From: Squalus acanthias
Taxonomy: Eukaryota
Direction: 5' to 3'
DNA: 64,000 nucleotides
Assembly: GCA_030390025.1 (NCBI GenBank)
Contig: CM059431.1
Span: 133,054,001 to 133,118,000 of the forward strand
Below the pieces are notes generated by a model. That model saw only the letters and a program-made list of their open reading frames with translations. It was not told the origin of the DNA and did not search any database. This document shows, in pieces, positions 5,302-58,397 of this stretch. Within the stretch, counting starts at the first letter, position 1. Every line of letters starts with the position of its first letter. Both the position numbers and the translations under genes were made by a program.

Positions 5302-6024
5302 GGGGCTGAATTTGCGGTCGGAGGCTTCCCGCGGACAAACTTACCTGATGGTCCTGGAGGTTCGGACACTTGTGCTCCTGGGTCTCTATGCGTAGACATG
5401 CGTATCCCAGGAGTGCAGGCGGTTCGCAAGCACCCCTGGGATCACGTGGGCTGGCCCAACCAATCAAAGAAGTGCAATCCTCATTCATACTTATGGAGGT
5501 TCCGTTTCTACGGAATCTCCATAAGCATGAATGGGGATGACGTTAAAAATAGATTGAACATAACAAATAACTAAAAAAAATTACATATTTAAAATTAATT
5601 AAAATACAATATAATTAAACATTTAAAATAAAAAAAAATTGAAAAATAAATTTGCATGTTTTAAATGGTCTAAAAATAAACTTACCTTATTGTACATGTG
5701 CTTTAATGTTTAAATGAATAAAAAAATATATTTTTATGTTTTTTAAAACTCTTACGCTGATAGAAGCAGACCTTACGCTTGCTTTTACCAGGCGTAAGAA
5801 TTTCACGGGCATTCGCTGGGCAGAAGTTGGGCAAATAGCCCAACTCTCCTCCCGCGGAGGCCCTTTTCCCAGGGATGCGGATCATCTGTCAAGAAGATTT
5901 TTGACAGATCATAAGTTTCGGGTTTTAGCACATGCGCTTCGCATGCCTAAACCCGGAACTTGCGCGGCCCCTACGGACGCGTATACACCTCGTACGCAAC
6001 CATAGGGCTCGCAAATTATGGCCC
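5302..6024 (-). mobile_element. PIF/Harbinger-type MITE, family A (reverse orientation)
   Basis: TIRs GGGGCTGAATTTGCG / CGCAAATTATGGCCC. Same internal blocks as family A, reversed (GGGATCACGTGGG, AAATAAACTTACCT, TCTGTCAAGA..TTGACAGA). Confidence 0.8.
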
Positions 6025-9000
6025 AAAATGTGATTTAAAATCTGTAATGAACTATGGGTAAGACATCTAAAATTATGGTCTTGATATCACACTACTTAAC
6101 ATAGATGAAATTGTTCCAACAATGTGTAACAATGTTTTCACCTATGCCAAGAAGCTTGGGTCATAGACCTGGCTAGGTAAACACTGTTTTATCATGTACC
6201 TCTTGTTATAATGTAAGTTTTAGCAAATAATACATTATTTAAAAAATCTTTAAACTACATCCATTTTTGTATGTTACTTTTTCTCCTTTTTTAAAGAATA
6301 TATTTTTTAGTTAGGTAGCAAGTGTACGGAACTGATAGTAGCAGGATCGAGGTAAGGTAATGTAGGGCACACAACATCACATGATATAAGCTCTGGCAAT
6401 ATCAGGTTTCTTTTGGCCGCATTTTAACAGTTTATAAATGATGTAGTAGCTCTTTATCCCCTACGACCGTAGGCAACATTACAGGACTGACAAGTATAGC
6501 TGTCATTTACTACTATTACAAGACAATGGGTTCCTCCAAGAGTTTCTTGAAATACATATTTAACTCCTTATTGTTAAATTCACATTTGCCTCACTAGCAT
6601 GAAGAGGTTAGTAATGCTACCTAATACAGCTCCAACTCAGAAAAACATTATTCTATCCTGCTTAAAGAATTTTATTATTTCTAAGGGAGATATAAAAGAA
6701 AAACTATGAAGTATGGAAATGTGAAAAAACAAAACATCTGGATATACAAAGATAGGGTAACTTTCTGATGAAGGATCATATCGGAAACATTTCTTTCTCT
6801 TTTCAGATCCTGATCAACCAGCTCTGCATTTTTTAGTTTTATTATTACTAATGTCATTTATGTATATTTAAGTTGGATAAGATAATTTTCTGAGATATTA
6901 CCTAATTCACATCATTAATAACCATCTCTTAGCCTGGAACTTGAAGTCTAGTTCAAACAGTCTGTTTTATCAAATAAAGTGTATTAATGAAAAATCTGTC
7001 AAAATGACTTAACTTGTCTCACAGCTAAAGAAAGCAATTGGACACTATAGCCTAGAAACTACAGTTTGCAATATTAGTGGACAAATAGTCCTTTGTCTGC
7101 TATTGTAGTGGAAGCGGTAACCCATTTAAAATAAACAGGTTAGCACCTGCATTAAGATAGTGGATAGAAGAATGGCATATGAGCACGTTAAGCATTTATA
7201 TACTAATATTGCAAATAATTATTTCTTGCCATATAGAATTTTGTTATTCACAATTGATTAGTTTTACAATAGAACCAGTGAAAATAAAATAGGTTGTCTC
7301 CAAAAATGTCTTCATTTTTACAACTCCTTTTGATGTCATTAATATTAATTATATTAAAGGGTTAACCATTGCTTACATTGACTAGGAGCATGTGTAATGT
7401 TAACACAAAATAATACTTCTTTCCATTAAAACTAAACTACAAATTGGACACCTTGCAATGTTAGTCTTTAATTCCTTTTTACACATTGTATTATTCTATT
7501 CACAACAGGCTGATAAAGGATTACAATGAAAATTCAAGCCTGACATATGGTCACTTGATGTTTATCAATTTTAGCTAAAGTGAGTGTAACATTTCTATTG
7601 GGGATCACTTCAGTCCGATCGTTGTAGACAGCAGTTTGTCTAATCAGATTGCAAATTAAGTTTGATCACATTCCAGCTTAATCCACTCTCAGTGCCCCAT
7701 TTACACCACTAAATCAAACACTGGGAAACTGCAGGTGCTGCTTTGCAGTCATTACACCCAAGGGGCAAAGGCTTTGTAATAAATAGCAAATAAATTGAAG
7801 TGCTGGGAAAGAAATCATCTGACTTGCAAGCTACAGGGCATTTCTAATTATCCTACAGTTTAGCTGGAATTCGTCATTGCCTCGACTCAGCAGAGTATTT
7901 TTTTAACAGCTGCTGAATGAGGCTGATGCTTTGCTTGTTTGAATTAATTGAGGTACTGAGAAACGCTTGTTGTACTGGTGCACTGCCTCCTCCTCTCAAT
8001 CCCCCCCCGCATAACCCACCGGCAGCCTGTTGCAAAAGTATCAGATGTACATAGCACTTGATGTTTCAGCTGTTTTCCTAAGCATTCTCCAGAGGAAATC
8101 ACAAATAACTGTCAACATCATGGCTCATTTATTTCAATTATAGTTAAGAGAGCTTCAAGAGCTGACAGCACAGCCAAGACTATGTTATGAATACTCATAT
8201 ACTAGGGTGCCTATGTGGGCACAAAGCATGATTTTCTATTAGTCTATATTTGGTGCCGTTTTATATTGTTGATTCTTTTTTCTTTCTATGTAACATTAAA
8301 TGACATCAATATCAAGGGATATATTTTATGCAAGTATATTGGTTCTGAAATATGGTTACATTTTCAAAATATAACGTGCAACAACATTTCAGTAATTGAA
8401 TTGAACTGCAAAATAGAATTTCTCCATCCAAAAAATGTCATAGTAAATGCTTTTTATGGATAGGGTAATGGTGCCATATCCTGTCAAGTAGCACCAATAT
8501 CGCTTCTCATAAGCTGCTTCTATATTGCTCTAGTGCCCTGCTGGTGTCATTGGCTTCTAACAAACAGGTCTCACACAACCACTAGCATCACCAAAATAAA
8601 CATGCCAAATTCATTAACTCTAGCGGCCAGGAAGACTAGTGTTTTTTATTGGGCGTACTCGCCACTGACCTTAGTGAATTTGACAAGTTTACTTTGGTGT
8701 TGCTGTTGGCTGCTTGAGACTTGTGTGATGGGAGCCAATAACTTTAGCATGACAGGGGGGTCCTCACCCCTAGCACCAACCCGCTTGCCTTCCCATCCCA
8801 GAGTGTACCATTTCCGGAGTTGCTGGGGATGGGAACACTGTGCTGACGAGACAGTCTACACCCTTGGTGTCGACCTATTTTCTTCTTCCACTAGACTGAG
8901 CTGCTGGCCATTCTCTACTTTGCCAGTTTTTTATGCTTCCCATTCTACTTATGATCCTGTTTAGTTCTTGTCACACTTGCAGCATCTCATGCTGGTCGAT

Positions 9001-11371: not shown

Positions 11372-12101
11372 GGCCCAGAAATTGATCTCGCTCTGTTCCC
11401 GCGGGGGTAAGGGGTAATCTCTCACTCCGCGTTGGCTTTTTCAGATCCAGCTCGCACGAACTTGATGTTCCAGACATCAGCTGGGCAGTGCTTGCGTATC
11501 CCACCGGCGTAGTGAATTCGTGCGAGCTGTGGGATCACGTGACTCAGTTAGAGCCAATGGCAGCACACCATCTTCCATTCATAAGTTTCACATACCTGCT
11601 GTGAAAGCTATGAATCTTACACCCCCCCAAAATAACAGCTAAACCTCAATTAAATTTAAAAAAAAAACCATCACATTAATAAAATAAGTATAGTTAAATA
11701 AATTAACCATTTTAAATAAAAAATTAAATTTTTGAAAAAATTAAAAATCTTTTAAAAAGTTATAAAAATAAACTTACCTGTCTTTAAAGTCTCTAAAAAA
11801 GATATACCTGTTAAAAAAAATTCAAAAAAATACTTAATTCACTACTTACCTTGTTAAAAGTGGGTCTTACTCCTCCTTTTTCCATTTCTAAAATCTTCCG
11901 TCCTTACCTGCGCGTCCAAAGCACGAAGTGCACAGCGTGCGCGCGCACACACGCGATGCACCGAGGAACCGCCCCCTTTTCCAAAGACCAAGTGCCGGTT
12001 TTCAGCGCATGCGCAGGGCATGCAGAAAACCGGCAATTGGAGAGAGAATACGCGAGAGTACGCAGTGCGTACTCTCGCGCAGCGGGATCAATTTTTGGCC
12101 C
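11372..12101 (-). mobile_element. PIF/Harbinger-type MITE related to family A
   Basis: 21-bp TIRs GGCCCAGAAATTGATCTCGCT / AGCGGGATCAATTTTTGGCCC (3 mismatches), flanks ATT/AAT. Contains GGGATCACGTGAC, AAATAAACTTACCT and GCGCATGCGC blocks. Confidence 0.8.
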
Positions 12102-12104
12102 AAT

Positions 12105-12226
12105 GAAAAGAAAAAGAAAGACTTGCATTTTTATAGCACCTTTCACGACCTTAGGACGTCCCAAAGCGCTTTATAGCCAATGAAGTACTTTTGAAGTGTA
12201 GTCACTGTTGTAATGTAGGAAACACG
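12105..12226 (-). mobile_element. DeuSINE 3' tail fragment
   Basis: Reverse complement of the 3' end of the 3132-3597 SINE (GACTTGCATTTTTATAGCACCTTTCACGAC..GTAGTCACTGTTGTAATGT). Confidence 0.85.
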
Positions 12227-16000: not shown

Positions 16001-16565
16001 GGGCCAGAAATTCGGCTTTCCGGCTTCCTGCGGGTGCAAGCATTGCGCGCGTACTTGCCTACCGCGCCTGCAGTTGTGCTTTGGGCCCACGAGGACTTCG
16101 GGTCCTGGGCCTCCTCCAGCTGCCGGCGCGCAGTGCTTGCGTGTCCCAGGGGCGCAGTTAGTTCGAAGCGTGCCCTGGGATCACGTGGGCCATGGAGAGC
16201 CAATCCTAGCAGGGCATTTTCATTCATAGATTTAACAGGAAGACCTGTCAAATCTATAAATAGAGATCGGCCCCAAAACCACACTTAAACCACACATTGA
16301 AAAAAAAAATCACATTTTTAAATAACTATAAGTTAAATAAATTAACTACTTTAAACAAAAATTTAAATTTTTGAAAAAATTAATTATACTTTTTAATGGT
16401 GCTAAAAATAAACTTACCTTTCTTTAAAGTATCTAAAAAAGATAAACCTGTTGAAAAAATGTTTAAATTGTAATTAATTATCCACTTACCTTGTTAAAAA
16501 CAGGCCTTGCGCCTCCTTTTTAAAAGTGCAGCTTCTCCATACTTACCCTCCCGGAGAAACCTGAA
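16001..16565 (-). mobile_element. Family A MITE, truncated (one TIR)
   Basis: AAT|GGGCCAGAAATTC end, GGGATCACGTGGGCC and two ACTTACCT blocks. No matching second TIR seen. Confidence 0.7.
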
Positions 16566-16976
16566 ATATCTATCTATGTCAGTGTTATACATGTTTATGA
16601 TAAAACTGTAAGGTTCTTTGTTTTGAGCTTTTACCAATTTTCAATTCCTTTTTTTAAATTATTCTGAATCTTGTGTTATGATAAGAATATCAGAGTTTAA
16701 AAAGAATATTGATGGGGGCATGATCCAGATTTTATAATGCTGAGAAAAATATACAAGGGGAGTTTTCCAACTTCAGCAAGGAACTTTGCCATTAGGGGGG
16801 AATTAGTAATTTGGATGTGCACAATGACTGTTAATTTAAATGGTCAGAAAATCGCGTGAAGCTTGTGCTCAAATATCTGATGTGCACTCTCGGCAGGTGA
16901 AGCTGCTCGCTGGGCACACAGTCAGAAATGAGGCCTAGAATGTAGGTGTAAGCAGACTATTTGACTTGGACTTGAA

Positions 16977-19900
16977 CGGTAGCATAGTGGTAATGTCACT
17001 GGGCTAGTAATCCAGAGGCCTGGATTAATGATCCCACCACGGCAGCTGTTAATTAAATAAATCTGGAATAAAAAGCTAGTATCAGTAGTGGTAACCATGA
17101 AACTATCGGATTGTCATAAAAACCCATCTGGTTCACTGATGTCCTTTAGGAAAGGAAATCTGCCGTCCTTACCCGGTCTGGCCTATATATGACTCCAGAC
17201 CCACAGCAATGTGGTTGACTCTTAACTGCCCTCTGAAATGGCCTAGCAAGCCACTCCGCTAACAAACTGCTACGAAACAAAATAATAAGAACCCGGCATC
17301 GACCTCGGCACCGGCAACGGCACACCCAGCCCAGTCGACCCTGCAAAGTCCTCCTCACCAACATCTGGGGACTTGTGCCAAAATTGGGAGAGCTGTCCCA
17401 CAGACTAGTCAAACAATAGCCTGACATAGTCATACTCACAGAATCATACCTTTCAGCCAATATCCCCAACTCCTCCATCATCATCCCTGGGTATGTCCTG
17501 TCCCACCAGCAGCACAGACTCACCAGGGGTGGCGGCATAGTGGTACACAGTTGGGAAGAGTGGCCCTGGGAGTCCTCAACATTGACTCCTGGACCCCATG
17601 AAGTCTCATGACTCCTGGTCAAACATGGGCAAGGAAACCTCCTGCTGATTACCACCACTGCCCTCCCTCAGCTGTTGAATCAGTACTCCTGTATGTTGAA
17701 CACCACTTGGAAGAAGCACTGAGAGTAGCAAGGGCACAGAATGTACTCTGGGTGGGGGACTTCAATGTCCATCACCAAGAGTGGCTCAGTAGCACCACTA
17801 CTGACCGAGCTGGCCAAGTCCTCAAGGACATAGCTGCCAATCTGGGCCTGCGACAGGTGGTGAGAGGACCTCATACTCACCAATCTACCTGTCACAGATG
17901 CATCTGTCCATGACAACATTGGTAGCAGTGACCACTGCACAGTCATTATGCAGACGAAGTCCTGTCTTCACACTGAGGACACCCTCCATCGTGTTGTGTG
18001 GCACTACCACCGTGCTAAATGGGATAGATTCAGAACAGATCTAGCAGCTCAAAACTGGGCATCCATGAGGTGCTGTGGGCCATCAGCAGCAGCAGAATTG
18101 TATTCCACTACAATCTGTAAACTCATGGCCCGGCATATACCTCACTCTACCATTGCCATCAAACTAGGGGATCAACCCTGGTTCAATAAGGAGTGTAGAA
18201 GAGCATGCCAGGAGCAGCACCAGGCGTACCTAAAAATGAGGTGCCAACCTGGGGAAGCTGCATCACAGGACTACATGCATGCTAAAAAGCAGAAGCAGCA
18301 TGCTATAGACAGGGCTAAGCGATCCCACCAACAACAGATCAGATCAAAGCCCTGCTGTCCTGCCACATCCAGTCGTGAATGGTGGTGGACCATTAAACAA
18401 CTAATGGGAGGAGGAGGTTCCATGAATATCCCCATCCTCAATGATGGTGAAGCCCAGCACGTGATTGCAAAAGACAAGGCTGAAACGTTTGCAACCATCT
18501 TCAGCCAGAAGTGCCGAGTGGATGATCCATATCGGCCTACTCCTGAGGTCCCCACCATCACTGAAGCCAGTTTTCAGCTAATTCGATTCACTCCACGTGA
18601 TATCAAGAAACGGCTGGGCACACTGGATACAGCAAAGGCTATGGGCCCCGACAATATCCTGGTTATTGTGCTGAAGACTTGTGCTCAGAACTAGCCGCGC
18701 CTCTAGCCAAGCTGTTCCAGTACAGCTACAACACAGGCATCTATCCGACAATGTGGAAAACTGCCCAGGTATCTCCTGTCCACAAAAAGCAGGACAAATC
18801 AATCCGGCCAATTACCGCCCCATCAGTCTACTATCAATTATCAGCAAAGTGATGGAAGGTGTCATTGACAGTGCTATCAAGCGGCACTTACTCACCAATA
18901 ACCTGCTCACTGATGCCCAGTTTGGGTTCCGCCAAGACCACTTGGCTCCCGACCTCATTGCAGCCTTGGTCTAAACATGGACAACGGAACTGAATTCAAG
19001 AGGTGAGGTGAGAGTGACTGTCCTTGACATCAAGGCAGCATTTGGCCGAGTGTGGCATCAAGGAGCCCTAGTAAAACTGAAGTCAATGGGAATCGGGGGG
19101 GAAATTCTCCACTGGCTGGAGTCATACCTAGCACAAAGGAAGATGGTTGTGGTGGTTGAAGGTCAATCATCACAGCCCCAGGACATCGCTGCAGGAGTTC
19201 CTCAGGGCAGTGTCCTAGGCCCAACCATCTTCAGCTGCTTCATCAATGACCTTCCCTCCAACATAAGGTCAGAAATGGAGATGTTTGCTGATGACTGCAC
19301 AGTGTTCAGTGCCATTCACAACTCCTCAGATAATGAAGCAGTCCATGCCCGGATGCAACAAGACCTGGATGACGTTCAGGCTTGGGCTGATAGGTGGCAG
19401 GTAACATTCGCGCCACAGAAGTGCCAGGCAATGACTATCTCCAACAAGTGAGAGTCTAACCACCGCCCCTTGACATTCAACGGCATTACCATCGCCGAAT
19501 CCCCCCATCAACATCCTAGGGGATCACCATTGACCAGAAACTTAACTGGACCAGCCACATAAATACTGTGGCAACAAGAGCAGGTCAGCGACTCACCTCC
19601 TGACTCCCCAAAGCCTTTCCACCATCTACAAGGCACAAGGAAGGAGTGTGATGGAATACTCTCCACTTGCCTGGATGAGTGCAACTCCAACAACACAAGA
19701 AGCTCGACACCATCCAGGACAAAGCAGCCGGCTTGATTGGCACCCCATCCACCACCTTAAACATTCACTCCCTCCACCACCGGCGTACCGTGGCTGCAGT
19801 GTGTACCATCTACAAGATGCACTGCAGCAACTCGTCAAGGCTTCTTCGGCAGCACCTCCCAAACCCGCGACCTCTACCACCTAGAAGGACAAGGGCAGCA

Positions 19901-20158
19901 GGTGCATGGGAACACCACCACCTCCAAGTTCCCCTCCAAGTCACACACCATCCTGACTTGGAAATATATCACTGTTCCTTCATCGTCACTGGGTCATCCT
20001 GGAACTCACTACCTAACAGCACTGTGGGAGTACATTCACCACACGGACTGCAGTGGTTCAAGAAAGCGGCTCACCACCACCTTCTCGAGAGCAATTAGGG
20101 ATGGGCAATAAATGCCGGCCTTGCCAGCGACGCCCACATCACATAAAACAAATAAAAA
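16977..20158 (+). mobile_element. CR1/L2-group LINE (APE endonuclease + RT) with SINE-like 5' head and no ORF1
   Basis: Head TAGCATAGTGG (A box) plus TGGTTCACTGATGTCCTTTAGGAAAGGAAATCTGCC block, then broken EN-RT frames, then tail GGGATGGGCAATAAATGCCGGCCTTGCCAGCGACGCCCACATC. Collinear with 51993-54520. Confidence 0.9.
17345..20098 (+). pseudogene. LINE ORF2 remnant (endonuclease-reverse transcriptase) with frameshifts and stops
   Basis: KVLLTNIWGL..DIVILTES and WVGDFNVHH (APE EN). [42 protein letters not shown] (RT). Spread over several frames. Confidence 0.9.
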
Positions 20159-21385
20159 GCACTATAGACACAAAGGTAGTCGAGACAAGTAAGAGTGGAA
20201 TTGCACCTTTGGTAATTTTAGTGTAAATGTAGATATGAGTAAAAAGCAATTTTACTCGCATCTACCTTTTTGCTAAAATTAGTGAAAGCAGGAATTTCAC
20301 TTTGTGGAAAACTAATTTTCACTTTCGGTGGGGGCAGAAATCAGCCAGTAATGGATTGGCCGCCCATTATACACACCGCCCGATTTTGCTTTCCATTGAG
20401 CCAATATAACAAGCAGCCGATCCGCCAACTCCAGTTATCCACCACATCAAAAATGAAAGTTACCTCTTGTTTTTTTCACAGTTATCGATTGATTGGAACA
20501 GTTTTGATAAGAAGAGTGAGCAGTTATACAAATAGGCCTAGATTATATGGATAGCTGGATATGTAATCAAATATTCAATAGGACATTATGGTTGCTGTGT
20601 TGTGGGGTTGGGGAGGGTAGGAGCAGCATGCCATGGTGGCTAATGGAGATATAGGGATGGATAGATATTCTGGAGTTTTGCTTGATTACCATTGGGGAAC
20701 GGAGAGTGTTTATGTAGAACTTTCCCATAGGAGATTCAACAGGTGGGATACAGTTGGGCCTATTGAGCCTAAAGTTTTTTTTCATTATCTGCTTTCTTAT
20801 GTTCTTACTAGGGACATTTTTATTTGTTGAAAAAATAACAAAAACATTGGCCGGAATTTTCTGAGGTTCATGCGGGCGCGATTGGAGGCAGGTTGGGTGG
20901 GAAATTTGAAAAATCTTGCAGCGGGTCGGGAACCCGCCGTCATCCCGCCCCCTCAGGTGCGTTTCCCTCAGGTGCGTTTGCCAGCGCGGCAGCGACCCAA
21001 ACGGCAGAGGCGGCCAAGGTAATTGAGATCATTATTAGGTCCTTGTCAGACCCTTAAGCGCCTTTTTCACCCTACCTTTCAAATTTCACTGGATAAGCAC
21101 GGGAATCACGCAGCTCAGGAACCATGTCTGTGAACCTGAGGCGGAAGTTGAGTGGCCATTGACCCACCTCAGTAATCCACAGCATGAAAAGTGCAATAAA
21201 AGCTCCAACCTCACAGCTGGTCACTTTCATAAGGCAGATGCTGTTGCGGAGTGCTTTAGCTTTCGAGAGGTTGCAAGTGTTTCCAGCAACGTCAGCATCC
21301 AGTGTCACCTCATTAATAGAACCTATCACACCATTGACAGATTGCTTCTAACATCTCTACTTGACCTGCCATCTATTCCATCAGC

Positions 21386-22520
21386 ATGGGTGCCATTTAT
21401 ACTGTCTCACCTTGGTCCTCAGAATCGTGATGAGCCCCAACACCAGCAGCACCAACAACAACACCAGCAGCAACAACAACACCACCAACCTTCTCCTCAA
21501 GCACCTGATGCTGCACAGGACAGATGGCATCAGCGCAGGACTGTACCACGCCGGAGGCGATACGCCCAACACAGGGTATACAGGCAGAGGATGAGCTTCC
21601 TCAACATGACTGAGCAGCAGTGCCACAGGAGGCTCAGTCTATCACGCCAGGTCATCGCAGACACTTGCACATTGCTGGAGCAAGACCTGCAACCCAGAGG
21701 AGCGGGTGGACATGCCTTACCAGTGGCTGTCAAAGTCACCAGCGCCCTCAACTTCTTTGCCTCAGGCTCCTTCCAGGGATCTGCAGCAGACATTTGCGGC
21801 ATCTCGCAGTCGGCTGCCCACAGATGCATCACCCAGGTCACTGATGCTCTCTTTGACAAGTCGGCCAATTATATCAACTTTGCCACTGATGAAGCCAGTG
21901 TTACTGAGCGGATGCTCAGCTTTGCCGCTCTGGCTGGCTTCCCACGGGTGCAGGGCATCATCAACTGCACACATGTGGCCATCAGGGCACCCCCATCATC
22001 ACCCAGGAGTCTTTGTGAACCGTAAGGGCTTCCACTCCCTCAAAGTGCAGCTAGTCTGCAACCATCGGAAGATCATCATGCATGTGTGCACAAAATTCCC
22101 TGGCAGCTGCCATGACTCTTTCGTCCTGCGCCAGTCCAGCCTCCCTCAGCTCTTCGCTCCTCCAAACAGACTTTCCGGCTGGCTGCTTGGAGACAAGAGC
22201 TATCCCACTGAAGACGTGACTCATCACACTCTTGAGGAGACCCAAGTACTGAGGCCCAGGAGAGATATAATGAAAGCCACATTTCCACCAGATGTGTCAT
22301 AGAGCAGACAATAAGTATGCTGAAAATGCGCTTCAGATACCTTGACAGATCTGGAGGAGCCCTTCAGTATGCACCAGCCAGGGTCTCCAGAATCATCATG
22401 GTCTGCTGCGCCCTGCACAACATAGCGCAGCAGCGAGGATTAGCGCTGCATCCGAGCACATTGCTGCCCAGGAGGCCAGGGATGTCCTCATCATGGTCAG
22501 ATTTACTTAACTTTACGCAT
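21386..22520 (+). pseudogene. Harbinger (HARBI1-like) DDE transposase, frameshifted
   Basis: [26 protein letters not shown] (first catalytic D appears as N), [52 protein letters not shown] across three frames. Confidence 0.9.
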
Positions 22521-22782
22521 TACACCCATATGGCTGCCACAAGCTGCGCCAGGTTGGCACCACCCCACAGCAACACCATAAAGTATCTCTGCAATGACTA
22601 AGCCATTCTTTTCACCATTGCTGGAGATAACGTTATGTCTCATCATTCACTCCAACTCACTAAGTCACTTCCAAAGGTGCACATAAATTTGTCCATGGTG
22701 AAGTGGTGAAAATAAAGATATTTATCTGTGACATCACAGTAACTGAAACTTTACACAAACATTTAATAAAACACCCAAGTGG

Positions 22783-24655
22783 CTACCCTTGTGAATCTAC
22801 TTGTGTTTGCATCTTTCTCTTACACGTGCTTCTACGAGGTGCTACCCCTGTGGTTTCAGCAGAAGTAGAGGCAGCCTGCTCACTTCCCTGCTGCGACTGC
22901 ATAGACCCTTTTGGCAGATGTCCTCTGGGTTTTGGAGCCTGTGATGGCCCTGCCAAAGTCTGCTCCTCCTGCGACTGTGCAGGGGCAGCCTTGGCCATCG
23001 CGATCCGAGAAGGCATCTGGGGCTCTGACTGAGTGGGGGGCAACGGGGGAGAAGTGTGAGTGCTTTGAGAGGAGCCCCCACTTGCATGTCTCCTCTCACC
23101 GTAATCCCTCTCATGGGCCACCCGCACTTCCCTGCTAACAAGGGGCTGGAGAGCGCCTTGCTGTACAGCAGGGACTCACTTCTACGTTGACATCCCTCCT
23201 AGAGAGGACGTTTATGAGCCTGTGCCATCTATTCTTCATAGATACCACGTGCTCCTGTGAGTGGCACATTAGCTGCTCCATGCAGGTGGCCATCCTTTCC
23301 ATGGAAGAGCCTACAGTTGCCATCGTCTGCGACATGGTGGTGCTCATGTTGGAGATGGACTCCTCCATTCTCTGCACATTTGCAGATATCGCGCTCGCAA
23401 AACCTGTCAAACCTCCTGCATTTCTTCCTGCACGTCCAGGATCACCCTCTTTCTGGATGGCCACCGAGGCTCAGCGTCTGCATGCAGCTGAGCAGAGCTG
23501 GGAGCGTCCTGCACCCTCCGGCAAGGAGTCTCCACTGCTGTCCCTGTCTCCACCATCTGCTCTTGCTCACTTGTGACTTGTGACAAACCAGGTGACAACA
23601 CTACTCTATCTTGCATGGGACCCACCGAGGTGTGCGTATCTGCGCTGGTGCTGGGTGCGCTTATGTCTGGTGATGATGCGCCTCAGAGGCTGGAGGCTGC
23701 TCTGAGGAGTCGTCTTCCTCTTCCTCCTGGACCGTGGGTGGGGGGGGGGGACGCTCTTGATGGACCTGTGGGAGAGTAAAGCGATGAGTCAGATATGTCA
23801 TATGAAGAATGTGTACAGATAGCATTATGCACATGATGAACATTTACTGGCTGCTGACATCAGTCCCCACATGAGTGACTGCTGTATGCCATGTGGCTGT
23901 ATGATATGTAATTCTGTCACCGGGTTGCTGAGATGTCTCCCTCTCTCCGTCTCCCACCTCCAGCTGCTCGGTGACTCCAGAGACTTCCAAGGCAGCCTCC
24001 TCTGCTGATGTTATGGTGGCCAATGATGGAGGGCCTCCTCCGGTTCTCTCCCTCTCCCTCTTATTGTGGACTCTCTTTTCCTGCAAGGAGGGAAAGAAGA
24101 GAAGGTTGAGTGAGAGTGATGGAACGAGTGTAAGGAATGGATGGGTTACATCTTTAGAGGGTGACTATGATGGAGTGGGGTGGCATTGCCAAGTGGCTTG
24201 TGTGTTGTGAGTTGGTATGATTGCATTAGGATGAGGGTAAGTGTGAGGGGTGGCTAGTAAGATGGGGATGTGATAATGTAGATAGAGAGGGATGGGTGGA
24301 CGTGCAAGGTAAGTTGGTGTGAGTAAGGATGTGCAGGAGTAGGGTTGGGAAGGCAGAGTGATGGGGATATGATGAGAGGCACAGCAGGATGAAGTTGAGT
24401 ATGGCTTTACACTCACCTTTCCTGATTTAATGAGATCATTGAAATGTTTGTGGCACTGCACCCAGGTCCTCCTGACCACATCCCTGCTGTTCACCTCCTT
24501 GGCTATTTGGAACCAGGCTCTTTTGTCTCCTGGAGTGGTCTCTTCCGCCCATCAGCAGGGAAGAGGACCTCGCTGCATGCTCTGACTCCCTCCACAAAAA
24601 TATGGAGGGAGTCATTGGAGAAACTGGGTGCAGCCCTCTGTCTTAGTGCAGTCAT
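22783..24655 (-). pseudogene. Harbinger Myb/SANT-like DNA-binding protein, three exons, frameshifted
   Basis: RAAPSFSNDSL..VLFP and RTWVQCHKHFNDL, GT donor at 24416. Exon 2 24080-23921 (NKRERERTGGGPP). Exon 3 from 23765 after a CCCACAG acceptor, with a coiled-coil-like segment. Confidence 0.8.
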
Positions 24656-24939
24656 GTCTGGCGCTCTTTGCAGCAGTCCAATTGTGCAGTGTGCTGCCTG
24701 CACACTCCTAGATGAACCTTCAAATGCAATGTGGCCATGACTCCTTTAAATATCCTGGCTGAAAACGCATCATCGCTGACATCAGACCCGCACCATTTAA
24801 TTGGGTGGGGTAACGCGCAGGGCAGCCTTAATAGGATAGTCGATCTCAGGAGCGGCATAGGTTGAAGAACGGGGTCGCGACCCACCACGGTGACCGCTCG
24901 CACTCAACCTGCCCAGGTGCAGAAAATTCCAGCCATTGT

Positions 24940-26819: not shown

Positions 26820-27123
26820 CTTGGCATCTGGGCAATGCTGATAATGCTGCATTTTATTGTCCATCCAGGAAGGCGGTGTCCAGGAAGGCGGTGGTGGGCT
26901 TTCTAGAGTCATGTATAGGTCAGACCAGGCAGGGGTGACAGATTTCCTTCCTAAAAGACATTAGTGAACCACTTGGGTTACTACAACAATTTCCCAGCTT
27001 TCGTGGTCATTTTTTTCTGGCAGTAGCCCTCATGTTATCAGATTTATAGAATTCAATTCACAACTTGCAATGGCGGGATTTGAACATGACCTCTGGATTG
27101 CTAGTCCAGTACTTTAACCACTA
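26820..27123 (-). mobile_element. Short SINE with the head and tail of the 16977-20158 LINE (MetaSINE-like)
   Basis: Reverse strand reads TAGTGGTTAAAGTACTGGACTAGCAATCCAGAGG..GTTCAAATCCCGCC, then TGGTTCACTAATGTCTTTTAGGAAGGAAATCTG, then GGATGGACAATAAAATGCAGC..GCCCAGATGCC, with no ORF between. Confidence 0.75.
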
Positions 27124-28582
27124 AAACGATACAACATCATTTAGATCCTATTTAAATCCTAGAGCCTAATTTTAACAAATCCCAGTTGGAATCCTGATTT
27201 ACCTGCACTATTTCAGCACTTCAGGGGGAAAGGGTGGCGAGGAGTGGACCTTTACTGATTTCTAGGCCTGTATCATAACCGCCCTGGGAGTGCTTAGTAC
27301 TAGTGCTTCATACAATATGGAAAATACCTATTGTATATAACGACTGACTTTCCCTGGATTCACGATTTAGTGCTCTGTGGACCATAAAGTTTCAGCTGGA
27401 GTCAGACCATCTCATTATTTTTTGAAATATCACGCTTGTACCTCCCTGATAAATAATTCCTGCCGGTATAATGTATCAGGCCGCACCATATTTGCCAAGG
27501 CCAGCAAGGTTAAAGCAGCAATCTAGCCTGAGTATCACCTTTGTTAATTTTTTTGCCCTGCAGTCAGTGATTTCCATATACAGAGTGACCTCAGTTTCTG
27601 CTGAACATGTGAAATCATGATGAAGCATGAAATGACACGTATTGCTGTCGGAGATTTGAAATGAGGCCTGCTAACCTGTGGGCAGTATCTCAGGACCAAT
27701 AAGTCTCTTGCAGTGGAAATGTATTATGATATACACTCCTTAGGAAAAAAAGGCTGGTGAAGTTTTTATCTAGGTCATTGACAAACATGACAATTTAATG
27801 TATTTTTGTAATAATCCAGTCTTATCCCACTTTTGAGGCCGTTATCTCCCTGATTCTTGAAATATGAATGCGGCAAAGAAAGCTTTTTTTTGCATCTGTG
27901 GTTTAACGATTGACAACGTTTATGTGGTATTAAAGGCTGGTGGAGATTTTCAGGGCATTTAGATATTCGTGCTGTTTGTAATCACTGCGATGATTTTAAT
28001 ATTTGAAATGCTTGCAGCGGAGGGACTGTTGGAAATAGATAAAAGTACGTTGTGGGTAGAATTTTATTATTGTAAAACATTTTGTGAAAGTAATAGGAAT
28101 AATAGCAAATATAAATATATTTTTTAATTAAAAGCAAAAATTCCAAACATGCACCTTTTAACTTGATTTCATTAATAGTAATGCATTTTTACAATACTGT
28201 TTTCAAAAAATAGATGTAGTACTTCAAAAACATTTAATGAAACTACTAGAAAATTCAGTTGATGAATCACTGTGGTATGTATGTACCACACCTTATTTTC
28301 ACGGGTATTCTTTGACGAGGTGCCTTTTGTTCACAACACGCAAAGGTATTTTGCAATCTCTGTTTCCCCTGGTTGTAATGTTTCAATCGCAATAGCTTTA
28401 AGAATCTCTTCTGGACTGTGAGTGGGCTAGAATGTGCTAGCTCACAAATGGCTAAAGCTGTTCCTGCTGGAACCGGTTTTAGTTAAACTTCTGGGACCAG
28501 TAGTTAACAATATCATTTCCTGCACTTTGGGGCGGGAGGGAATGGCGTTGAGGAATGTATTTCTGTAAAACTCACACACAGT

Positions 28583-31500
28583 AGCCGGAATTTTGCCGGC
28601 ACTCAGAGGGCAGGTTTGGAGGCAGGTCCGCTGTCAAAATCTAAAAGATTGACAGCGGGTTGGGATCCCGCTCTGAACCCGCCTCCGTGTCAGTTTCCCA
28701 AATGTTGGGTCTGTCTGCGCTTTAAAGGGACCATGTCCACATTCATTTTGCGGTGGGTCAGCCAATTGAGATAGTTAAGAGGGTTTTTAAAGGTAGTTAA
28801 ACAGCATTTTACCACCATTTTTCCAACTTTTCCATGAGGTTCCCGTCACTCGGGGATCACGTCAGGTAAGTGTGTCGGGTTCTCAATGACTCTCCATTGC
28901 TGTGACTAGGCGACAGCTGCAAAAGTGGTATAAAAGCTACCATTTCATAGCTGTTCACTTTCCAATGTTAGAAGATTGAGCCTTCAGGATTTGGAAGACA
29001 CTTTGAGCTGTATGCAGTTTGGAAGTGTATGGAGTAAACTCTATCGATTGTCACTTCCTTGGAGCAAGCTCTCTCACCATTGACAGATTGCTTCTGTCAT
29101 CTCAACTTCAGCTGCCATCTATTCCATCAGCATCGGTACCCTTGAAAAAATCTCATCTTGGTCCTCAGAATCCCACCACGATCAGCCCCAACACCAACAT
29201 CACCAGGCACACCAACATCACCAACAACAATATCAACCTTCTCCGCAATCACCTGATGCTGCACAGGACACAGGGCATCAGCACTCGACTATATTGCTGC
29301 CCGGGACGCCAGCGATGGCCTCGCCATAGACAGATTTACCTCACTTGATGCTGAACACCCTGGCTGCCACATGATGCGCCAGGTTGGCACCAACCCACAC
29401 CAGCACCATAAAGCATCCCTACAATGTCCAAGCCATTCCTTTCACACTCATCACCATTGGGGGGGGGGTACCGTTATGTCTCACCATTCACTGAAACTCA
29501 CTAAGACACTTCTAAAGGTGCACACAAATCTGTCCAAGAAGGCAAAGTGTTGAAAATAAAGGTTTCAATGTTTGACAACACATTAACAGAAACTTTACAT
29601 GAACATTGCATAAAACACCCAAGTGCCTACCCTTGTGTGTTGTTAGTTGGTATGATTGGACAAGGATGAGGGTGAGTGTGAGGAGTGGCTAGTGAGATGG
29701 GGAAGTGATAATGTAGATAGAGAGGGATGGTTGGAGGTGCAAGGTAAGTTGGTGTGAGTAAGGATGTGCAGGAGTAGGGTAGGGAAGGCAGAGTGATGGG
29801 GATGTGATGAGTGGCACAGCAGGATGAGGCTGAGTGTGACTTTGTAGTCATGTTTTGTGAGCTACTGAGATCATTGAAAGGTTTGCGCCACTGCAGCCTG
29901 GTCCTCCTGACCACATCCCTGCTTGTATCCTCCTGTGCAATGTGCAACCAGGCTGCATTGGTGTCCCGGGGAGGTGTCTTCCACCCATTGGAAGGGAAGA
30001 GAACCTCCCTGTGTGCTGTGACTCCCTCCATAAGCACATGGAGCGAGTCATGGGAGAGCCTGGTTACAGCTGTGCTTTGCTCGTCAGTGTTTGCAGCACC
30101 TCAAAGCTGCAGAACACTGACAGCACAACTGTCAAAATGAATGTGGACATGGTCCCTTTAAGTAAACTGGCTGACGGCGCGTCATCAAATGACGTCATCA
30201 GACCCGCTTCCTTGTAATTGGCCGGGAACCTCGCAGGGCGGGCTTAACAAGCCCTATTAACATAAAATCATGTCGGAGGCTGGGATCCAGACAGCTGTTG
30301 GGTCGGCACCTGTCACGGACGTCACCCACCACCCGCCATGGACATCGCCAACCACCTGCCATGGACATTGCCCACCACCCGCCACGGACATCGCCCACCA
30401 CAGACATCACTCACCATCCGCCACAGACATCGCCCACCACCCGCCACGGACATCGCCAACCACAGACATCACTCACCATCCGCCACGGACATCGCCCACC
30501 ACCCACCACGGACATCACCCACCACCCGCCATGGACATCGCCAACCACCCACCACGGATATCACCCACCACCCGCCATGGACATCACCCACCACAGACAT
30601 CACCCACCACCCGCCACGGACATCACCAACCACCCGCCACAGACATCGCCCACCACCCGCCACGGACATCGCCCACCACAGACATCACTCACCATCCGCC
30701 ACGGACATCGCCCACCACCCACCACGGACGTCACCCACCACCCGCCATGGACATCGCCAACCACCCACCACGGATATCACCCACCACCCGCCATGGACAT
30801 CACCCACCACAGACATCACCCACCACCCGCCACGGACATCACCCACCACCCGCCATGGACATCACCCACCACAGACATCACCCACCACCCGCCACGGACA
30901 TCACCCACCACCCGCCAAGGACATCACCCACCACAGACATCACCCACCACCCGCCACAGACATCACCCACCACCCGCCACGGACATCACCCACCACAGAC
31001 ATCGCCCACCACCCGCCACGGACATCACCCACCACCCGCCACGGACATCACCCACCACAGACATCGCCCACCACCCGCCACGGACATCACCCACCACAGA
31101 CATCGCCCACCACCCGCCACGGACATCACCCACCACCCGCCATGGACATCACCCACCACAGACATCACCCACCACCCGCCACGGACATCACCAACCACCC
31201 ACCACAGACATCGCCCACCACCCGCCATGGACATCACCCACCACAGACATCACCCACCACCCGCCACGGACATCACCCACCACCCGCCACGGACATCACC
31301 CACCACCCGCCACGGACATCACCCACCACCCGCCATGGACATCACCCACCACAGACATCGCCCACCACCCGCCACGGACATCACCCACCACCCGCCACGG
31401 ACATCACCCACCACCCACATCACCCACCACCCACCACGGACATCACCCACCACCCGCCATGGACATCACCCACCACAGACATCACCCACCACCCGCCATG

Positions 31501-51992: not shown

Positions 51993-54520
51993 GGAGTGCG
52001 GTACCATAGTGGTTATGCTACTGGACGAGTAATCCAGAAGCCTGGACTAATGATCTGGAGACATGAGTTCAAATCCCACCACGGCAGCTGTGGAATTTAA
52101 ATTCCTTTAATCCAATAAACTGGAATAAAAAGCTAGTATCAGTAATGGTGACCTTCAAACTACAGGATTGTCGTAACAACCCATCTGATTCACTAATTCC
52201 CTTTAAGGAAGGAAATCTGCCGTCCTTACCTGGTCTGGCCTATATGGAACTCCAGACCCACAGCAATGTGGTTGACTGTTAACTGCCCTCTGAAATGGCC
52301 TAGCAAGCCACTCAGTTTTACCAAACCGCTACAAAGAAGTATACTAAGAATAAAACCGGACGGACCACCCAGCATCGACAAAGGCACATCCAGCCCAGTC
52401 GACCCTGCAAAGTCCTCCTCACAAACATCTGGGGACTTGTGCCAAAATTGGGAGAGCTGTCCCACAGACTAGTCAAGCAACAGCTTGACATAGTCATACT
52501 CACAGAATCATACCTTCGAGCCAACGTCCCAGACTCCTACATCACCATCCCTGAGGCGGAACAGTGGTATACAGTTGGAATGGGGTGGCCCTGGGAGTCC
52601 TCAACATTGACTCCAGACCCCATGAAGTCTCATGGCTTCAGGTCAAACATGGGCCAGGAAACCTCTTGCTGATTACCACGTACCGCCCTCCCTCAGCTGA
52701 TGAAGCAATACTCCTCCATGTTCAACACCACTTGGAAGAAGCACTGAGGGTAGCAAGGGCACAGAACATAGTCTGGGTGGGGGACTTCAATGTCCATCAC
52801 CAAGAGTGGCTCAGTAGCACCACTATTGACCGAGCTGGCCGAGTCCTGAAGAACATAGCTGCCAGTCTGGACCTGTGGCAGCTGGTAAAAGAACCAGCAT
52901 GAGGGAAAAATCTACTTGACCTCGTTCTCACCAATCTACCTGTCACAAATGCATCAGTCCTTGACAGTATTGGTAGCAGTGACCACCGCACACAGTCATT
53001 GTGGAGACGAAGTCCCATCTTCACACTGAGGACACTCTCCATCATGTTGTGTGGCATTACCACTGTGCTAAATGGGATAGATTCAGAACAAATCTAGCAG
53101 CTCAAAACTGGGCATCCATGAGGCGCTGTGGGCGATCAGCAGCAGCAGAATTGTATTCCACCACAATCTGTAACCTCATGGCCCGGCATATCCCTCACTC
53201 TAACATTACCATCAAGCCTAGGAACCAACCCTGGTTCAATGAAGAGTGTAGAAAAGCATGCCAGGAGCAGCACCAAGCATACCTAAAAATGAGGTGCCAA
53301 CCTGGTGAAGCTACAACACAGGTCTATGTACATGCTAATGGAAACAGCATGCTATAAACAGAGCTAAGCAATCCCACAACCAATGGATCAGATCAAAGCT
53401 CTGCAGTCCTGCCACATCCAATAGTGACTGGTGGTGGACAATTAAACAACTAACAGGAGGAGGTGGCTCCATGAACATCCCCATCCTCAATGATGGTGGA
53501 GCCCAGCACGTGAGTGCAAAAGACAAGGCTGAAGCGTTCGCAACCATCTTCAACCAGAAGTGCCGAGTGGATGATCCATCTCGGCCTCCTCCGGAGATCC
53601 CCACCTTCACAGAAGCCGGTCTTCAGCCAATTCTATTCACTCCACGTGGTATCAAGAAACGGCTGAGCGCAAAGGCTATAGGCCCCAACAACATCCCGGC
53701 TGTCGTGCTGAAGACTTGTGCTCCAAAACTAGCCGTGCCTCTAGCCAAGCTGTTCCAGTACAGCTACAACACTGGCATCTACCCGACAATGTGGGAAACT
53801 GCCCAGGTATGTCCTGTCCACAAAAACCAGGACAAATTCAATCCAGCCAATTACTGCCCTATCAGTCTACTCTCAATCTTCAGCAAAGTGATGCAAGGTT
53901 TCATCAACAGTGCTATCAAGCGGCACTTACTCACCAATAACCTGCTCACCGATGCTCAGTTTGGGTTCTGCCAGAACCACTCGGCTCCAGACCTCATTAC
54001 AGCCTTAGTCCAAACATGGACAAAAAGAGCTAAATTCCAGAGGTGAGGTGACAGTGACTGCACTTGACATCAAGGCAGCATTAGACCGAGTGTGGCATCA
54101 AGGAGCCCTAGTAAAACTGAAGTCAATGGGAATCAGAGTGAAAACTCTCCACTAGCTGGACTCATACCGAGCACAAAGGAAGATGGTTGTGGTTGTTGGA
54201 GGCCAATCATCTCAGCCCCAGGACATCGCTGCAGGAGTTCCTCAGGGCAGTGGTTAGGCCCAACCATCTTCAGCTGCTTCACCAATGAGCTTCCCTCCAT
54301 CATAAGGTCAGAAGTGGTGATGTTTGCTGATGACTGCACAGTGTTCAGTTCGATTCGCAACTCCTCAGATAATGAAGGAGTCCGTGTCCGCATGCAGCAA
54401 GACCTAGACGACATTCAGGCTTGTGCTGAAAAGTGGCAAGTAACATTCTCGCCACACAAGAGCAATAAATGCTGGCCTTGCCAGCGACGCCCATATCCCA
54501 AGAACGAATAAAAAGAATAA
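51993..54520 (+). mobile_element. Second copy of the SINE-headed EN+RT LINE, with 3' internal deletion
   Basis: A box TACCATAGTGG, B box GAGTTCAAATCCC, same EN/RT motifs as 16977-20158. RT C-terminus joins directly to the tail at ~54460. Appears inserted in a MITE remnant (~51660-51990 and ~54520-54730). Confidence 0.9.
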
Positions 54521-57254: not shown

Positions 57255-58397
57255 TAAAAATTGCGAATGGAACTGAACACTGCAATTATCAGTGAACAAC
57301 CCCACTTCTGACCTTATGATGGAGGGAAGGTCATAGAATGATACACCAACAGAAGGAGGCCATTCAGCCCAACATACCTGTGAAAGAGCTATCCAATTAG
57401 TCATACTTCCTCACCCTTTCAGCCATAGCCGTGCTAATTTTTCCCCTTCAAGTATTTATCCAATTCCCTTTTGAATGTTACTATTGAATCTGCTTCTACC
57501 ACCCTTTCAGGCAGTGCATTCCAGATCATAAAAACTCGCTGCATAAAAAAGTTTCGCTCATCTCACCTCTGGTTCTTTTGTCAATTATCTTAAATCTCTG
57601 TGTCCTCTGGTTACTGACCCTTCTGCCACTGGAAACAGTTTCTCTTTAGTTACTCTATCAAAACCCTTTGTGATTTTGAGCACCTCTATTAAATCTCCCC
57701 TTAACCTTCCCTGCTCTAAAGAGAACAACCTCAGCTTCTCTAGCCTTTCCACGTAACTGAAGTCCCTCATCCCTGGTACCATTCTGGTAAATCTCCCCTG
57801 TACCCTCTTATTGATTAATCAGCTGAAGATAGTTGGGCCTAGGATGCTGCCCTGAGGAACTCCCACAGTGATGTCCTAGGGCTGCAATAATTGGCCTCCA
57901 ACAACCACAACCACCTTCCTTTGTGTTCAGTATGACTCCAGCCACTGGAGAGTTTTCCACTGATTCCCATTGATTTCAGCTTTGCTAGGGCTGCTTGGTT
58001 CTACACTCGGTTGAATGCTGCCTTGATGTCAAGGGCAGTCACTCCCACCTCACACCTCTGGAATTCAGCTCTTTTGTCCATGTTTGGACTAAGGCTGTAA
58101 TGAGATCTGGAACCTAATGGTCCTGACGGAACCCAAAGTGAGCATCAGTGAGCAGGTTATTGGTGAGTAAGTGTCACTTGATAGCACTGTCGATGACACC
58201 TTCAATCATTTTGCTGATGATTGAGAGTAGACTGATGGGGCAGTAATTGGCTGGATTGGATTTGTCCTGCTTTTTGTGGACGGGACATAGCTGGGCAATT
58301 TTCCACATGTAGGGCAGAAGCCAGTGTTGTTGCTGTAGTGGAACAGCTTGGCTAGAGGCACAGCTAGTTCTGGAGCATAGGTCTTCAGCACTACATC
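57255..58397 (-). mobile_element. RT fragment of the SINE-headed LINE family, split by CR1
   Basis: KTYAPELAVPLAKLF and NPANYCPISLLSIISKMIEG. Sequence GGAAGGTCAT|..|TTGATTAATCAGCTGAAG is continuous across the CR1 insertion. Confidence 0.85.
57331..57808 (-). mobile_element. CR1 LINE 3' fragment
   Basis: MVPGMRDFSYVERLEKLRLFSLEQGRLRGDLIE; GAAGGAGGCCATTCAGCCC terminal motif. Confidence 0.9.

What the first reader, a model, noticed from the sequence alone, without database searches (positions are those of the whole stretch)
16977..20158. ORF1-less LINE that begins with a tRNA/SINE-type head, with its SINE derivative in the same window
Seen: two independent copies (16977-20158, 51993-54520) start with a Pol III-like head (A box in both, B box GTTCAAATCC in copy 2) and a block I recall as the MetaSINE-type central domain. 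The APE endonuclease starts about 90 bp later, leaving no room for ORF1, and I see no in-frame AUG just upstream. The element at 26820-27123 has the same head and 3' tail with no ORF. Inference: this is a genuine family rather than a chance SINE+LINE juxtaposition. It may be an autonomous LINE using a SINE-type promoter, possibly with non-AUG translation, and the SINE may be its internal-deletion partner.
Basis: partly seen in the sequence, partly recalled or inferred. Interest (0 to 1): 0.7.

Follow-up and report, generated by a model that had tools for sequence, protein, structure and literature searches.

The report
Shark LINE with tRNA-type promoter head
An abundant 3.2-kb jumping gene of sharks codes for its own copying enzyme yet begins with the tRNA-derived promoter that normally drives only short non-coding repeats, and its coding strand avoids that polymerase's stop signal, so it may be a protein-coding element read by an unexpected RNA polymerase.

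Summary
The architecture is real. Two decayed copies (16977-20159, 51999-54515) are collinear from a tRNA-derived head into one APE-RT ORF. Head and ORF are equally diverged (89.6% vs 89.5-90.1%). The head-ORF junction is bridged in contigs from four coded organisms and in whale-shark gene models. The element most likely is the elasmobranch Zenon LINE (CR1 group), for which 'no ORF1, poly-A tail' is already published (2026 preprint); that text never mentions tRNA or promoter. The undescribed part is the Pol III-type head plus sense-strand T-run avoidance (TTT O/E 0.32-0.33, below all 35 control LINEs), which fits Pol III transcription without proving it. Corrections: the MetaSINE label is unsupported; the SINE at 26820-27138 is a bipartite derivative of a diverged sister lineage (70-80%), while true head-to-tail deletion forms occur in the reads; no TSD found; non-AUG start unresolved. 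This scan noted the family before on other DNA of this genome (at least 8 notes); none used the word Zenon.

The parts
16977..17050 (+). Copy 1: tRNA-derived head; A box 16980-16990; anticodon-arm-like unit present twice (second unit and B box partly deleted in this copy)
17051..17256 (+). Copy 1: body / 5' UTR shared by the LINE and its SINE forms; several short upstream ORFs
17257..17344 (+). Copy 1: linker; reads as an Arg/Lys-rich extension in the ORF2 frame, like the basic N-terminus of the closest full-length relative P0008; 27 nt shorter than the 85-nt form bridged in reads
   Evidence: coding role inferred
17345..20098 (+). Copy 1: single ORF (APE endonuclease + reverse transcriptase + C-terminal domain), broken by frameshifts and stops; stop at 20096-20098
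   Evidence: Pfam Exo_endo_phos_2 and RVT_1; tblastn with P0008 covers residues 21-977 in pieces
20099..20159 (+). Copy 1: about 45-nt 3' UTR and A-rich tail
   Evidence: (loose ends at 20140 continue into an A run)
51999..54515 (+). Copy 2: head with A box (52002) and B box (52067-52076) and the duplicated arm, body, linker, ORF2 to the end of RT, then a jump (equal to 19424->20105) to the tail
26820..27138 (-). Sister SINE: simple tRNA-like head (27138-27068; B box 27085-27076), first part of the body, then the last ORF2 codons and 3' UTR of the LINE; local 15-bp duplication at 26864-26893
57261..58395 (-). Third, truncated RT fragment of the same family (87-88% to copies 1 and 2), interrupted by another repeat

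Best explanation
This is a decayed copy of an abundant, ORF1-less, poly-A-tailed LINE of sharks, most likely the elasmobranch Zenon (CR1 group), whose master carries a tRNA-derived head as its fixed 5' end. Shown: head, body and ORF2 spread as one unit, and the family also throws off short head-to-tail deletion forms that are structurally SINEs. Inferred: RNA polymerase III starts at the head from the internal A and B boxes and reads the whole 3.2-3.3 kb because the sense strand is purged of T runs; the uncapped RNA, ending in a templated A tract, is translated weakly into the APE-RT protein, which needs only a few molecules to bind its own 3' end and insert by target-primed reverse transcription. 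The start codon is unknown; the ORF probably begins in the basic linker upstream of the APE motif. Odds: real family 0.95, Zenon 0.85, Pol III transcription about 0.6, non-AUG start about 0.35.
For: Equal divergence of head/body (249/278, 89.6%), APE region (1078/1205, 89.5%) and RT (652/724, 90.1%) between the copies, with one shared 5' boundary. Reads of 4 runs from 4 coded organisms cover every bin from 16917 to 20192 at depth 4e4-1.3e7 against 10-230 in the two flanking bins; joints 17256->17315 with 85 letters between in 2, 9, 8 and 8 contigs; loose ends at 17256 (693 and 814 records in two runs) start with the linker sequence of copy 2; head-to-tail joints 17256->20091 in 18, 25, 19 and 26 contigs. 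2 of 3 whale-shark gene models hit by the N-terminal query join translated body to APE. T runs: one T4 in each copy, at different places; runs of 3+ T 8 vs 22.5 and 7 vs 19 expected from base shuffles (p 0.001); TTT O/E 0.32 and 0.33, against 0.49-1.75 (median 1.16) in 35 control LINE loci and 2.03 in the window's other LINE; AAA, CCC, GGG O/E 0.77-1.23; synonymous xTT:xTC 34:70 vs 71:83 (p 0.039) and 27:59 vs 53:52 (p 0.008). Zenon: preprint 10.64898/2026.01.13.699120 reports full-length Zenon in five elasmobranchs, all without ORF1 and with poly-A; lepidopteran Zenons are 3.06-3.74 kb (PMC6740152); the RT falls in a 25-row branch with a lepidopteran protein, apart from the window's other LINE.
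Against: No transcript evidence: no RNA run was laid, and contigs cannot give start, strand or cap. Against a dinucleotide null the T4 count is not low (1 vs 1.6 and 1.8, p about 0.5), because TT itself is depleted; against base shuffles T4 alone is borderline (p 0.048, 0.09); Phe TTT:TTC is significant in copy 2 only. The two copies are not independent, p values are uncorrected, and the 35 control loci are distant (23-45% protein identity), AT-richer and mostly of other LINE clades. The sister SINE itself has a T4 in its body (26956). The LINE head has a duplicated arm that stretches the A-B distance to 65 nt and gives no Rfam match. Kojima 2024 (PMC10886601) states that non-LTR elements use Pol II and that weak Pol III processivity limits such elements to about 0.1-1.3 kb. 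The tree is a quick one, the key branch has SH-aLRT 94 (under the 95 mark), and no named Zenon was in it. The read tables are cut (11,617 joints and 19,089 loose ends not shown), so minor headless or differently headed subfamilies are not excluded. No TSD was found.
Confidence: 0.58

Rival explanations
1. Same stable family, but transcribed by Pol II (internal promoter in the body, or host read-through). The head is a relic of an old SINE-LINE recombination, kept for RNA stability or by hitch-hiking, and T runs are avoided because U-rich tracts act as splice acceptors or polyadenylation elements in an unspliced RNA.
For: Pol II is the stated rule for LINEs; a capped RNA would be easier to translate; the head is distorted by a duplication; the dinucleotide null does not single out T4.
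Against: The 5' boundary sits within 4 nt of the Pol III start expected from the A box in both copies; Pol II LINE controls show no such depletion (35 of 35 have higher TTT O/E); AATAAA occurs twice in the 5' region of each copy, awkward for a Pol II transcript.
Confidence: 0.27
2. The tRNA-headed form is a non-autonomous passenger: a giant SINE-like Pol III RNA that carries ORF2 without translating it and is moved in trans by a rarer headless Zenon master.
For: No in-frame AUG in either copy, and 7 upstream AUGs in each; an uncapped RNA is a poor mRNA (established knowledge); no intact full-length shark ORF2 protein turned up among proteins of 483-2000 aa (4 hits, all chimeric gene models).
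Against: The ORF is complete from APE motif to stop; T avoidance falls on synonymous positions, which implies coding constraint during its build-up; other copies differ from copy 1 at several of its frame breaks, so these are copy-specific decay (table 4); no alternative 5' end is among the best-supported loose ends.
Confidence: 0.1
3. Recurrent accidents: the LINE inserts at a fixed site of an abundant SINE, or RT switches template to SINE RNA at each insertion, so each head-ORF2 junction is a separate event.
For: Template-switch chimeras of small RNAs and L1 are documented (PMC4494074); no TSD encloses either copy.
Against: One junction position in both copies, in 4 of 4 runs and in whale shark; head and ORF equally diverged; no left-over SINE 3' half behind either copy (only 3 tail matches in the window).
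Confidence: 0.05

Closest known systems
Elasmobranch Zenon LINEs (CR1 group; Stuart, Du, Hassan, Adelson, bioRxiv 10.64898/2026.01.13.699120; also listed as CR1-Zenon in the whale-shark genome, 10.1101/443036)
   Same: Shark host, single APE-RT ORF, no ORF1, poly-A tail, high identity across sharks. Probably the very same family.
   Different: The main text has 0 occurrences of tRNA, promoter, polymerase III or start codon: head, SINE forms and T-run avoidance are not described. Its consensus sequences were not visible, so identity is inferred.
Zenon / Persaeus SIDE of Lepidoptera (Wang et al. 2019, PMC6740152)
   Same: Single-ORF 3.1-3.7 kb Zenon that repeatedly yields short internally deleted elements made of its 5' and 3' ends.
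   Different: Persaeus has no tRNA homology and no Pol III promoter; here the parent LINE carries one, so its deletion products are at once SINE-like.
Bipartite LINE-derived SINEs: Bov-tA/Bov-B, SINE2-1_ACar/Vingi-2_ACar (Kojima 2018, PMC5786205; Kojima 2015, PMC4494074)
   Same: tRNA head + LINE 5' part + LINE 3' part.
   Different: There the head is added to the short non-coding element and the autonomous LINE stays headless; only RTE, Ingi, Vingi and R2 were listed as sources. Here the head sits on the coding element of a CR1-group clade.
TRIMp3: Cassandra, Helenus, Ajax (Kojima 2024, PMC10886601)
   Same: Retroelements other than SINEs with a small-RNA-derived Pol III promoter.
   Different: Non-autonomous LTR elements of 0.3-1.3 kb without coding capacity.
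SacSINE1 / Deu-SINEs of sharks (Luchetti et al. 2017, PMC5499810)
   Same: tRNA-headed shark SINE with a LINE-derived tail.
   Different: Described with a Deu domain and an L2-2_CM-like tail, up to 463 bp. A different 465-bp SINE in this window (3131-3598) fits that description better (recalled, not tested) and shares no detectable similarity with this head.

Membership tests
Zenon (CR1 group LINE) | ORF2 with APE endonuclease and RT | tested here: met
Zenon (CR1 group LINE) | No ORF1 | tested here: met
   368-410 nt from 5' end to APE motif; longest upstream AUG frame 68 aa; feature
Zenon (CR1 group LINE) | [quoted passage not shown] | tested here: met
   loose ends at 20140 in 4 of 4 runs (1382-2835 records) continue into an A run; A-rich ends of both copies
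Zenon (CR1 group LINE) | Full length about 3.1-3.7 kb | tested here: met
   copy 1 is 3.18 kb with small deletions; range from Table 1 of PMC6740152
Zenon (CR1 group LINE) | RT groups with named Zenon elements | tested here: inconclusive
   quick tree: sister to unnamed P0008 (90), in a branch (94) with a Loxostege protein that I take to be Zenon; no named reference available
Zenon (CR1 group LINE) | Identity with the published elasmobranch Zenon consensus | not testable with these tools
   bioRxiv supplements closed; Repbase and Dfam not searchable
tRNA-derived SINE (SINE2) | tRNA-derived head with A and B boxes | tested here: met
   27068-27138(-) aligns to the whole Rfam tRNA model, below the gathering score; boxes in copy 2; the LINE head is homologous to it
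tRNA-derived SINE (SINE2) | Short and non-coding | tested here: not met
   not met by the 3.2-kb element; met by 26820-27138 and by the head-to-tail forms in reads
tRNA-derived SINE (SINE2) | Transcribed by RNA polymerase III | not testable with these tools
   only indirect: T-run depletion
MetaSINE | 66-bp Meta-domain right after the tRNA head | tested here: not met
   by-eye comparison with bivalve MetaSINEs in the supplement and one 13-nt motif at 3 mismatches: 18 hits vs 20 by chance, none on the sense strand of any body. Weak test; the figure with the full Meta consensus was not visible. No shark MetaSINE in the passages seen.
SacSINE1 / DeuSINE | Deu domain in the body | tested here: inconclusive
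   a bivalve Deu motif matched nowhere in the window, so the test had no positive control; supplement of PMC5499810 unavailable
SacSINE1 / DeuSINE | 3' tail shared with an L2 LINE | tested here: not met
   the tail derives from this LINE's own last codons and 3' UTR (score 32, above all 500 shuffles); L2-2_CM itself was not available for comparison

The most novel reading that the evidence does not exclude
Shark Zenon is an autonomous, protein-coding LINE transcribed by RNA polymerase III from a captured tRNA promoter over more than 3 kb, with its reading frame recoded at synonymous sites to avoid Pol III terminators and translated cap-independently, perhaps without an AUG; it is a standing factory of SINEs by simple internal deletion, and it erases the textbook Pol II LINE / Pol III SINE divide.
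Probability: 0.5. Interest if true: 0.82.

Novelty: new variant of a known kind. Interest (0 to 1): 0.64.

Why it matters
The working definition in the field is that LINEs are Pol II and coding, SINEs Pol III and non-coding, with Pol III thought unable to carry long elements. A very successful coding LINE with a tRNA promoter would be a natural case of a Pol III mRNA and would ask how an uncapped RNA is translated. It gives a direct route for SINE birth (delete the ORF, keep head and tail), seen here with several different breakpoints, and a testable origin for SINE 'bodies' as LINE 5' UTRs. In practice, shark repeat libraries will split this element into a SINE and a LINE, and gene models already absorb pieces of it. 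The ORF1-less part is not new.

Tried and rejected
No whole genome was held, so the genome-wide junction and TSD census was replaced by one read-laying run on copy 1 (4 of 24 listed runs, all contigs, none RNA). ARAGORN: 0 in the window and 0 of 47 loci given out of 80; uninformative, since it misses the heads here too. Rfam over the whole window found no tRNA match. Folding of heads and tails: no z-score beyond -1.9, no support for a special structure. A 22-base body motif found nothing in metagenome, viral or prokaryote contigs. Shark head and tail profiles found nothing in 80 loci of distant LINEs; an A/B-box pair scan found 0 of 27 upstream regions, but the same scan found only 1 of the 3 heads in the window, so it is a weak negative. 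TSD search: best shared words 5-6 nt, not adjoining the ends. A search for long proteins holding the N-terminus found none, so the start codon stays open. Read depth was not used as copy number. Rejected: MetaSINE label; SacSINE1 as the partner; chance juxtaposition; LINE inserted into a SINE. In one search reading frames were picked by eye and about 16 codons of one piece (17608-17655) are out of frame; gaps between pieces were left out. Literature searches that found no description of a tRNA-headed autonomous LINE: (open-licence PMC and bioRxiv only; Repbase, Dfam, SINEBase and subscription papers were not searchable; the preprint's supplements and those of PMC5499810 may bear on this).
Full report
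1. What is in the sequence. Copy 1 spans 16977-20159 and copy 2 51999-54515, both on the + strand. They align at 84.4% over 2525 columns from the first base of the head to the end of the RT, and again over the last 55 bases; copy 2 has lost about 680 bp between RT and tail. A third RT fragment lies at 57261-58395(-). Pfam finds the APE endonuclease and RVT_1 in open pieces of both copies, and tblastn with the closest full-length relative (P0008, 983 aa) covers residues 21-977 across 17327-20083 in frameshifted pieces. The APE motif begins at 17345; the stop is at 20096-20098, followed by about 45 nt and an A-rich end. From 5' end to APE motif there are 368 and 410 nt, with 7 AUGs in each copy and no AUG frame over 68 aa: there is no ORF1.

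2. The head. Copy 1 has an exact A box at 16980-16990 and has lost its B box by deletion. Copy 2 has a one-mismatch A box at 52002 and a B box at 52067. Single boxes are near chance in 64 kb. The better evidence is the related short element: 27068-27138(-) aligns to the entire Rfam tRNA model (17.9 bits, below the gathering score) and is clearly homologous to the LINE head (profile E 3e-29). In the LINE the anticodon-arm segment is present twice (about 21 bp), which lengthens the A-B distance to 65 nt and probably explains the lack of an Rfam match for copy 2. The body after the head does not resemble the Meta-domain of bivalve MetaSINEs in the supplement of PMC4824008 (by eye; motif test). 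It is also unrelated to the other tRNA-headed SINE in the window (3131-3598; no hit).

3. One family, not neighbours by chance. Between the two copies the head/body is 89.6% identical (249/278), the APE-side 89.5% (1078/1205), the RT 90.1% (652/724), the linker 83.2% (99/119), and homology starts at the same base. Contigs of 4 public runs from 4 coded organisms (4 of 24 runs listed; organism A may be the window's own species) cover all bins from 16917 to 20192 at depth 4e4-1.3e7, against 10-230 in the flanking bins, with a rise toward the 3' end as expected from 5' truncation (depth is not copy number). The body-to-APE junction is bridged in 4 of 4 runs (17256->17315, 85 letters between; 2, 9, 8, 8 contigs), and the main loose end at 17256 (693 and 814 records in two runs, agreement 0.53) starts with the linker letters of copy 2. 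The tables are cut, so minor forms are unseen. Independently, 2 of 3 whale-shark gene models found with the N-terminal piece join translated body to the APE start. Close protein pieces come from Heptranchias, Heterodontus, Pristiophorus and Rhincodon (61-82%), which places the window in a shark or ray. No TSD was found; at about 10% divergence between copies this is weak evidence.

4. The SINEs. Reads show true deletion forms: 17256->20091 in 18, 25, 19 and 26 contigs, neighbouring joints to 20066, 20092 and 20096 in all four runs, and others (17225->20080, 17240->20067, 17242->20069) in single runs. Several breakpoints suggest repeated births from the headed LINE (inference; they may partly reflect alignment slippage). 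The window's own SINE is a different case: 74-80% to the heads, no duplicated arm, no block equal to 17200-17256, and a 3' part that begins in the last ORF2 codons (aligned to 20058-20140, score 32, above all 500 shuffles). It is bipartite too, but from an older or sister form. Whether the head first sat on a LINE, or was first added to a bipartite short element (the model of Kojima 2018) and then recombined back onto the LINE through the shared body, cannot be told here.

5. Clade. Full-length relatives at 38-45% include amphioxus proteins and many unnamed single ORFs of 935-987 aa on contigs of 3.1-4.1 kb. A quick RT tree of 121 rows (hits covering at least 200 residues of the reference RT for proteins, 220 for loci, 150 for the window; 9 near-duplicates dropped) puts the three window copies with P0008 (SH-aLRT 90) inside a 25-row branch (94) that holds a moth protein (Loxostege; my reading as Zenon is inference), away from the window's other LINE. 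The 2026 preprint of Stuart et al. (parts 1-5 of 6 read; term search of the whole main text; supplements closed) reports full-length Zenon in five elasmobranchs at over 84% identity, all Zenons lacking ORF1 and bearing poly-A, and none deposited in repeat databases. Length, ORF1 loss, A tail and host all fit. So the ORF1-less architecture is known; the text has no mention of tRNA, promoter or Pol III.

6. Which polymerase. The lead came from earlier notes of this scan (about 75 notes on this genome fit the words, none with 'Zenon') and I tested it. Each copy has one T4 run, at different places (0.3-0.4 per kb; window 6.4; 35 control loci 2.1-17). A dinucleotide null does not call this low (p about 0.5), because TT is itself depleted. 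Against base shuffles, runs of 3+ T are 8 vs 22.5 and 7 vs 19 (p 0.001), T4 1 vs 4.6 (p 0.048) and 1 vs 3.9 (p 0.09); TTT O/E is 0.32-0.33, lower than all 35 controls (0.49-1.75) and the window's other LINE (2.03), while A, C and G triplets are not comparably depleted. The avoidance is synonymous: T-ending codons after a middle T are rarer than other T-ending codons (p 0.039, 0.008), and third-position T before a T-starting codon is 13/131 and 9/103 against 166/721 and 128/560 elsewhere. Caveats: the copies are not independent, the tests are uncorrected, and the controls (35 of 80 loci, chosen for long matches) are distant, AT-richer and mostly of other clades. Vertebrate Pol III stops at T4 (established knowledge), so a fixed 5' end at a tRNA start plus T avoidance is what a Pol III transcript would show. 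Avoidance of splice or polyadenylation signals is the main alternative, and Kojima 2024 argues that Pol III processivity caps such elements near 1 kb (passages).

7. Translation. Neither copy has an in-frame AUG after the last upstream stop. The linker reads as an Arg/Lys-rich stretch in the ORF2 frame, like the basic N-terminus of P0008, and full-length relatives mostly have a Met up to about 35 residues before the APE motif. Both copies have shorter linkers than the 85-nt form in reads, whose letters were not shown, so an AUG in the master remains possible. Uncapped LINE RNAs that are translated are known from R2 and L1Tc (recalled, not checked here).

8. Verdict. Real family; probably the shark Zenon; ORF1 loss known; tRNA-type head on the coding element, its SINE offspring and T-run avoidance not found in print, with Repbase, Dfam and SINEBase unchecked. 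New variant of a known kind; interest 0.64, and about 0.8 if Pol III transcription is shown. Papers seen: PMC5499810 parts 1-2 of 6; PMC4824008 passages and supplement part 1 of 4; PMC7245038 part 1 of 4 (14, not used); PMC5786205 passages; PMC6740152 parts 1-2 of 5; PMC11481361 passages (39: CR1-Zenon tails on bivalve SINEs); 10.1101/443036 passages; PMC3894237 part 1 of 3 (70, not used); PMC4494074 passages; PMC10886601 passages.

Noticed in passing
window 3131-3598(+), 38755-39221(+), 49040-49500(+); pieces at 40927-41137 and 12105-12226(-): A second tRNA-headed SINE family of about 465 bp, 82-86% between copies, A/B boxes at 3142/3187 and 38766/38811. By recall it looks like SacSINE1 (Deu type, L2 tail); unrelated to the head studied here.
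   Followed up: partly
window 2350-4830(-), with related pieces at 5339-6025, 11485-12102, 16095-16739, 32373-33999: Another LINE with RT, in a different branch of the tree, T-run rich (8 per kb); the SINE at 3131-3598 is inserted inside its ORF.
   Followed up: partly
window 21039-24831 and 29043-30247: Two related decayed stretches (78-79%) with DDE_Tnp_4 pieces (21610-22601) and a weak Myb/SANT match at 29630-30100(-): PIF/Harbinger-like transposon remains.
   Followed up: partly
window 30307-32019, 46729-49035, 62208-64000: Long tandem arrays: 16/23/39/62-bp units, degenerate CT repeat, and a 23-bp G-rich unit running off the window end.
   Followed up: no
window 36073-36637, 37830-38416 (inverted), 59529-59909: Repeat of about 590 bp in three copies, two facing each other 1.2 kb apart; looks like a LINE 3' end, not classified.
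   Followed up: no
window 45150-45252, 56756-56811, 61625-61764: Near-perfect palindromes that give sub-threshold matches to unrelated miRNA families; probably short inverted-repeat elements.
   Followed up: no
window 17256 (read data): The loose-end consensus behind 17256 turns into an A run about 20 letters into the linker (agreement 0.53). It may be a blend of diverged linkers, or a further short form that ends there in poly-A without the LINE tail.
   Followed up: no
proteins P0001-P0004: Shark gene models named AKR1B1-like, SVEP1-like, STOX1-like and LRRC32-like contain 75-82% identical pieces of this ORF2: annotation artefacts or exonised copies.
   Followed up: no
window 54455-54470: Copy 2's 680-bp deletion joins RT to tail at a short shared word (GCAAT in both flanks of copy 1), a half-way state between LINE and SINE form.
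   Followed up: partly
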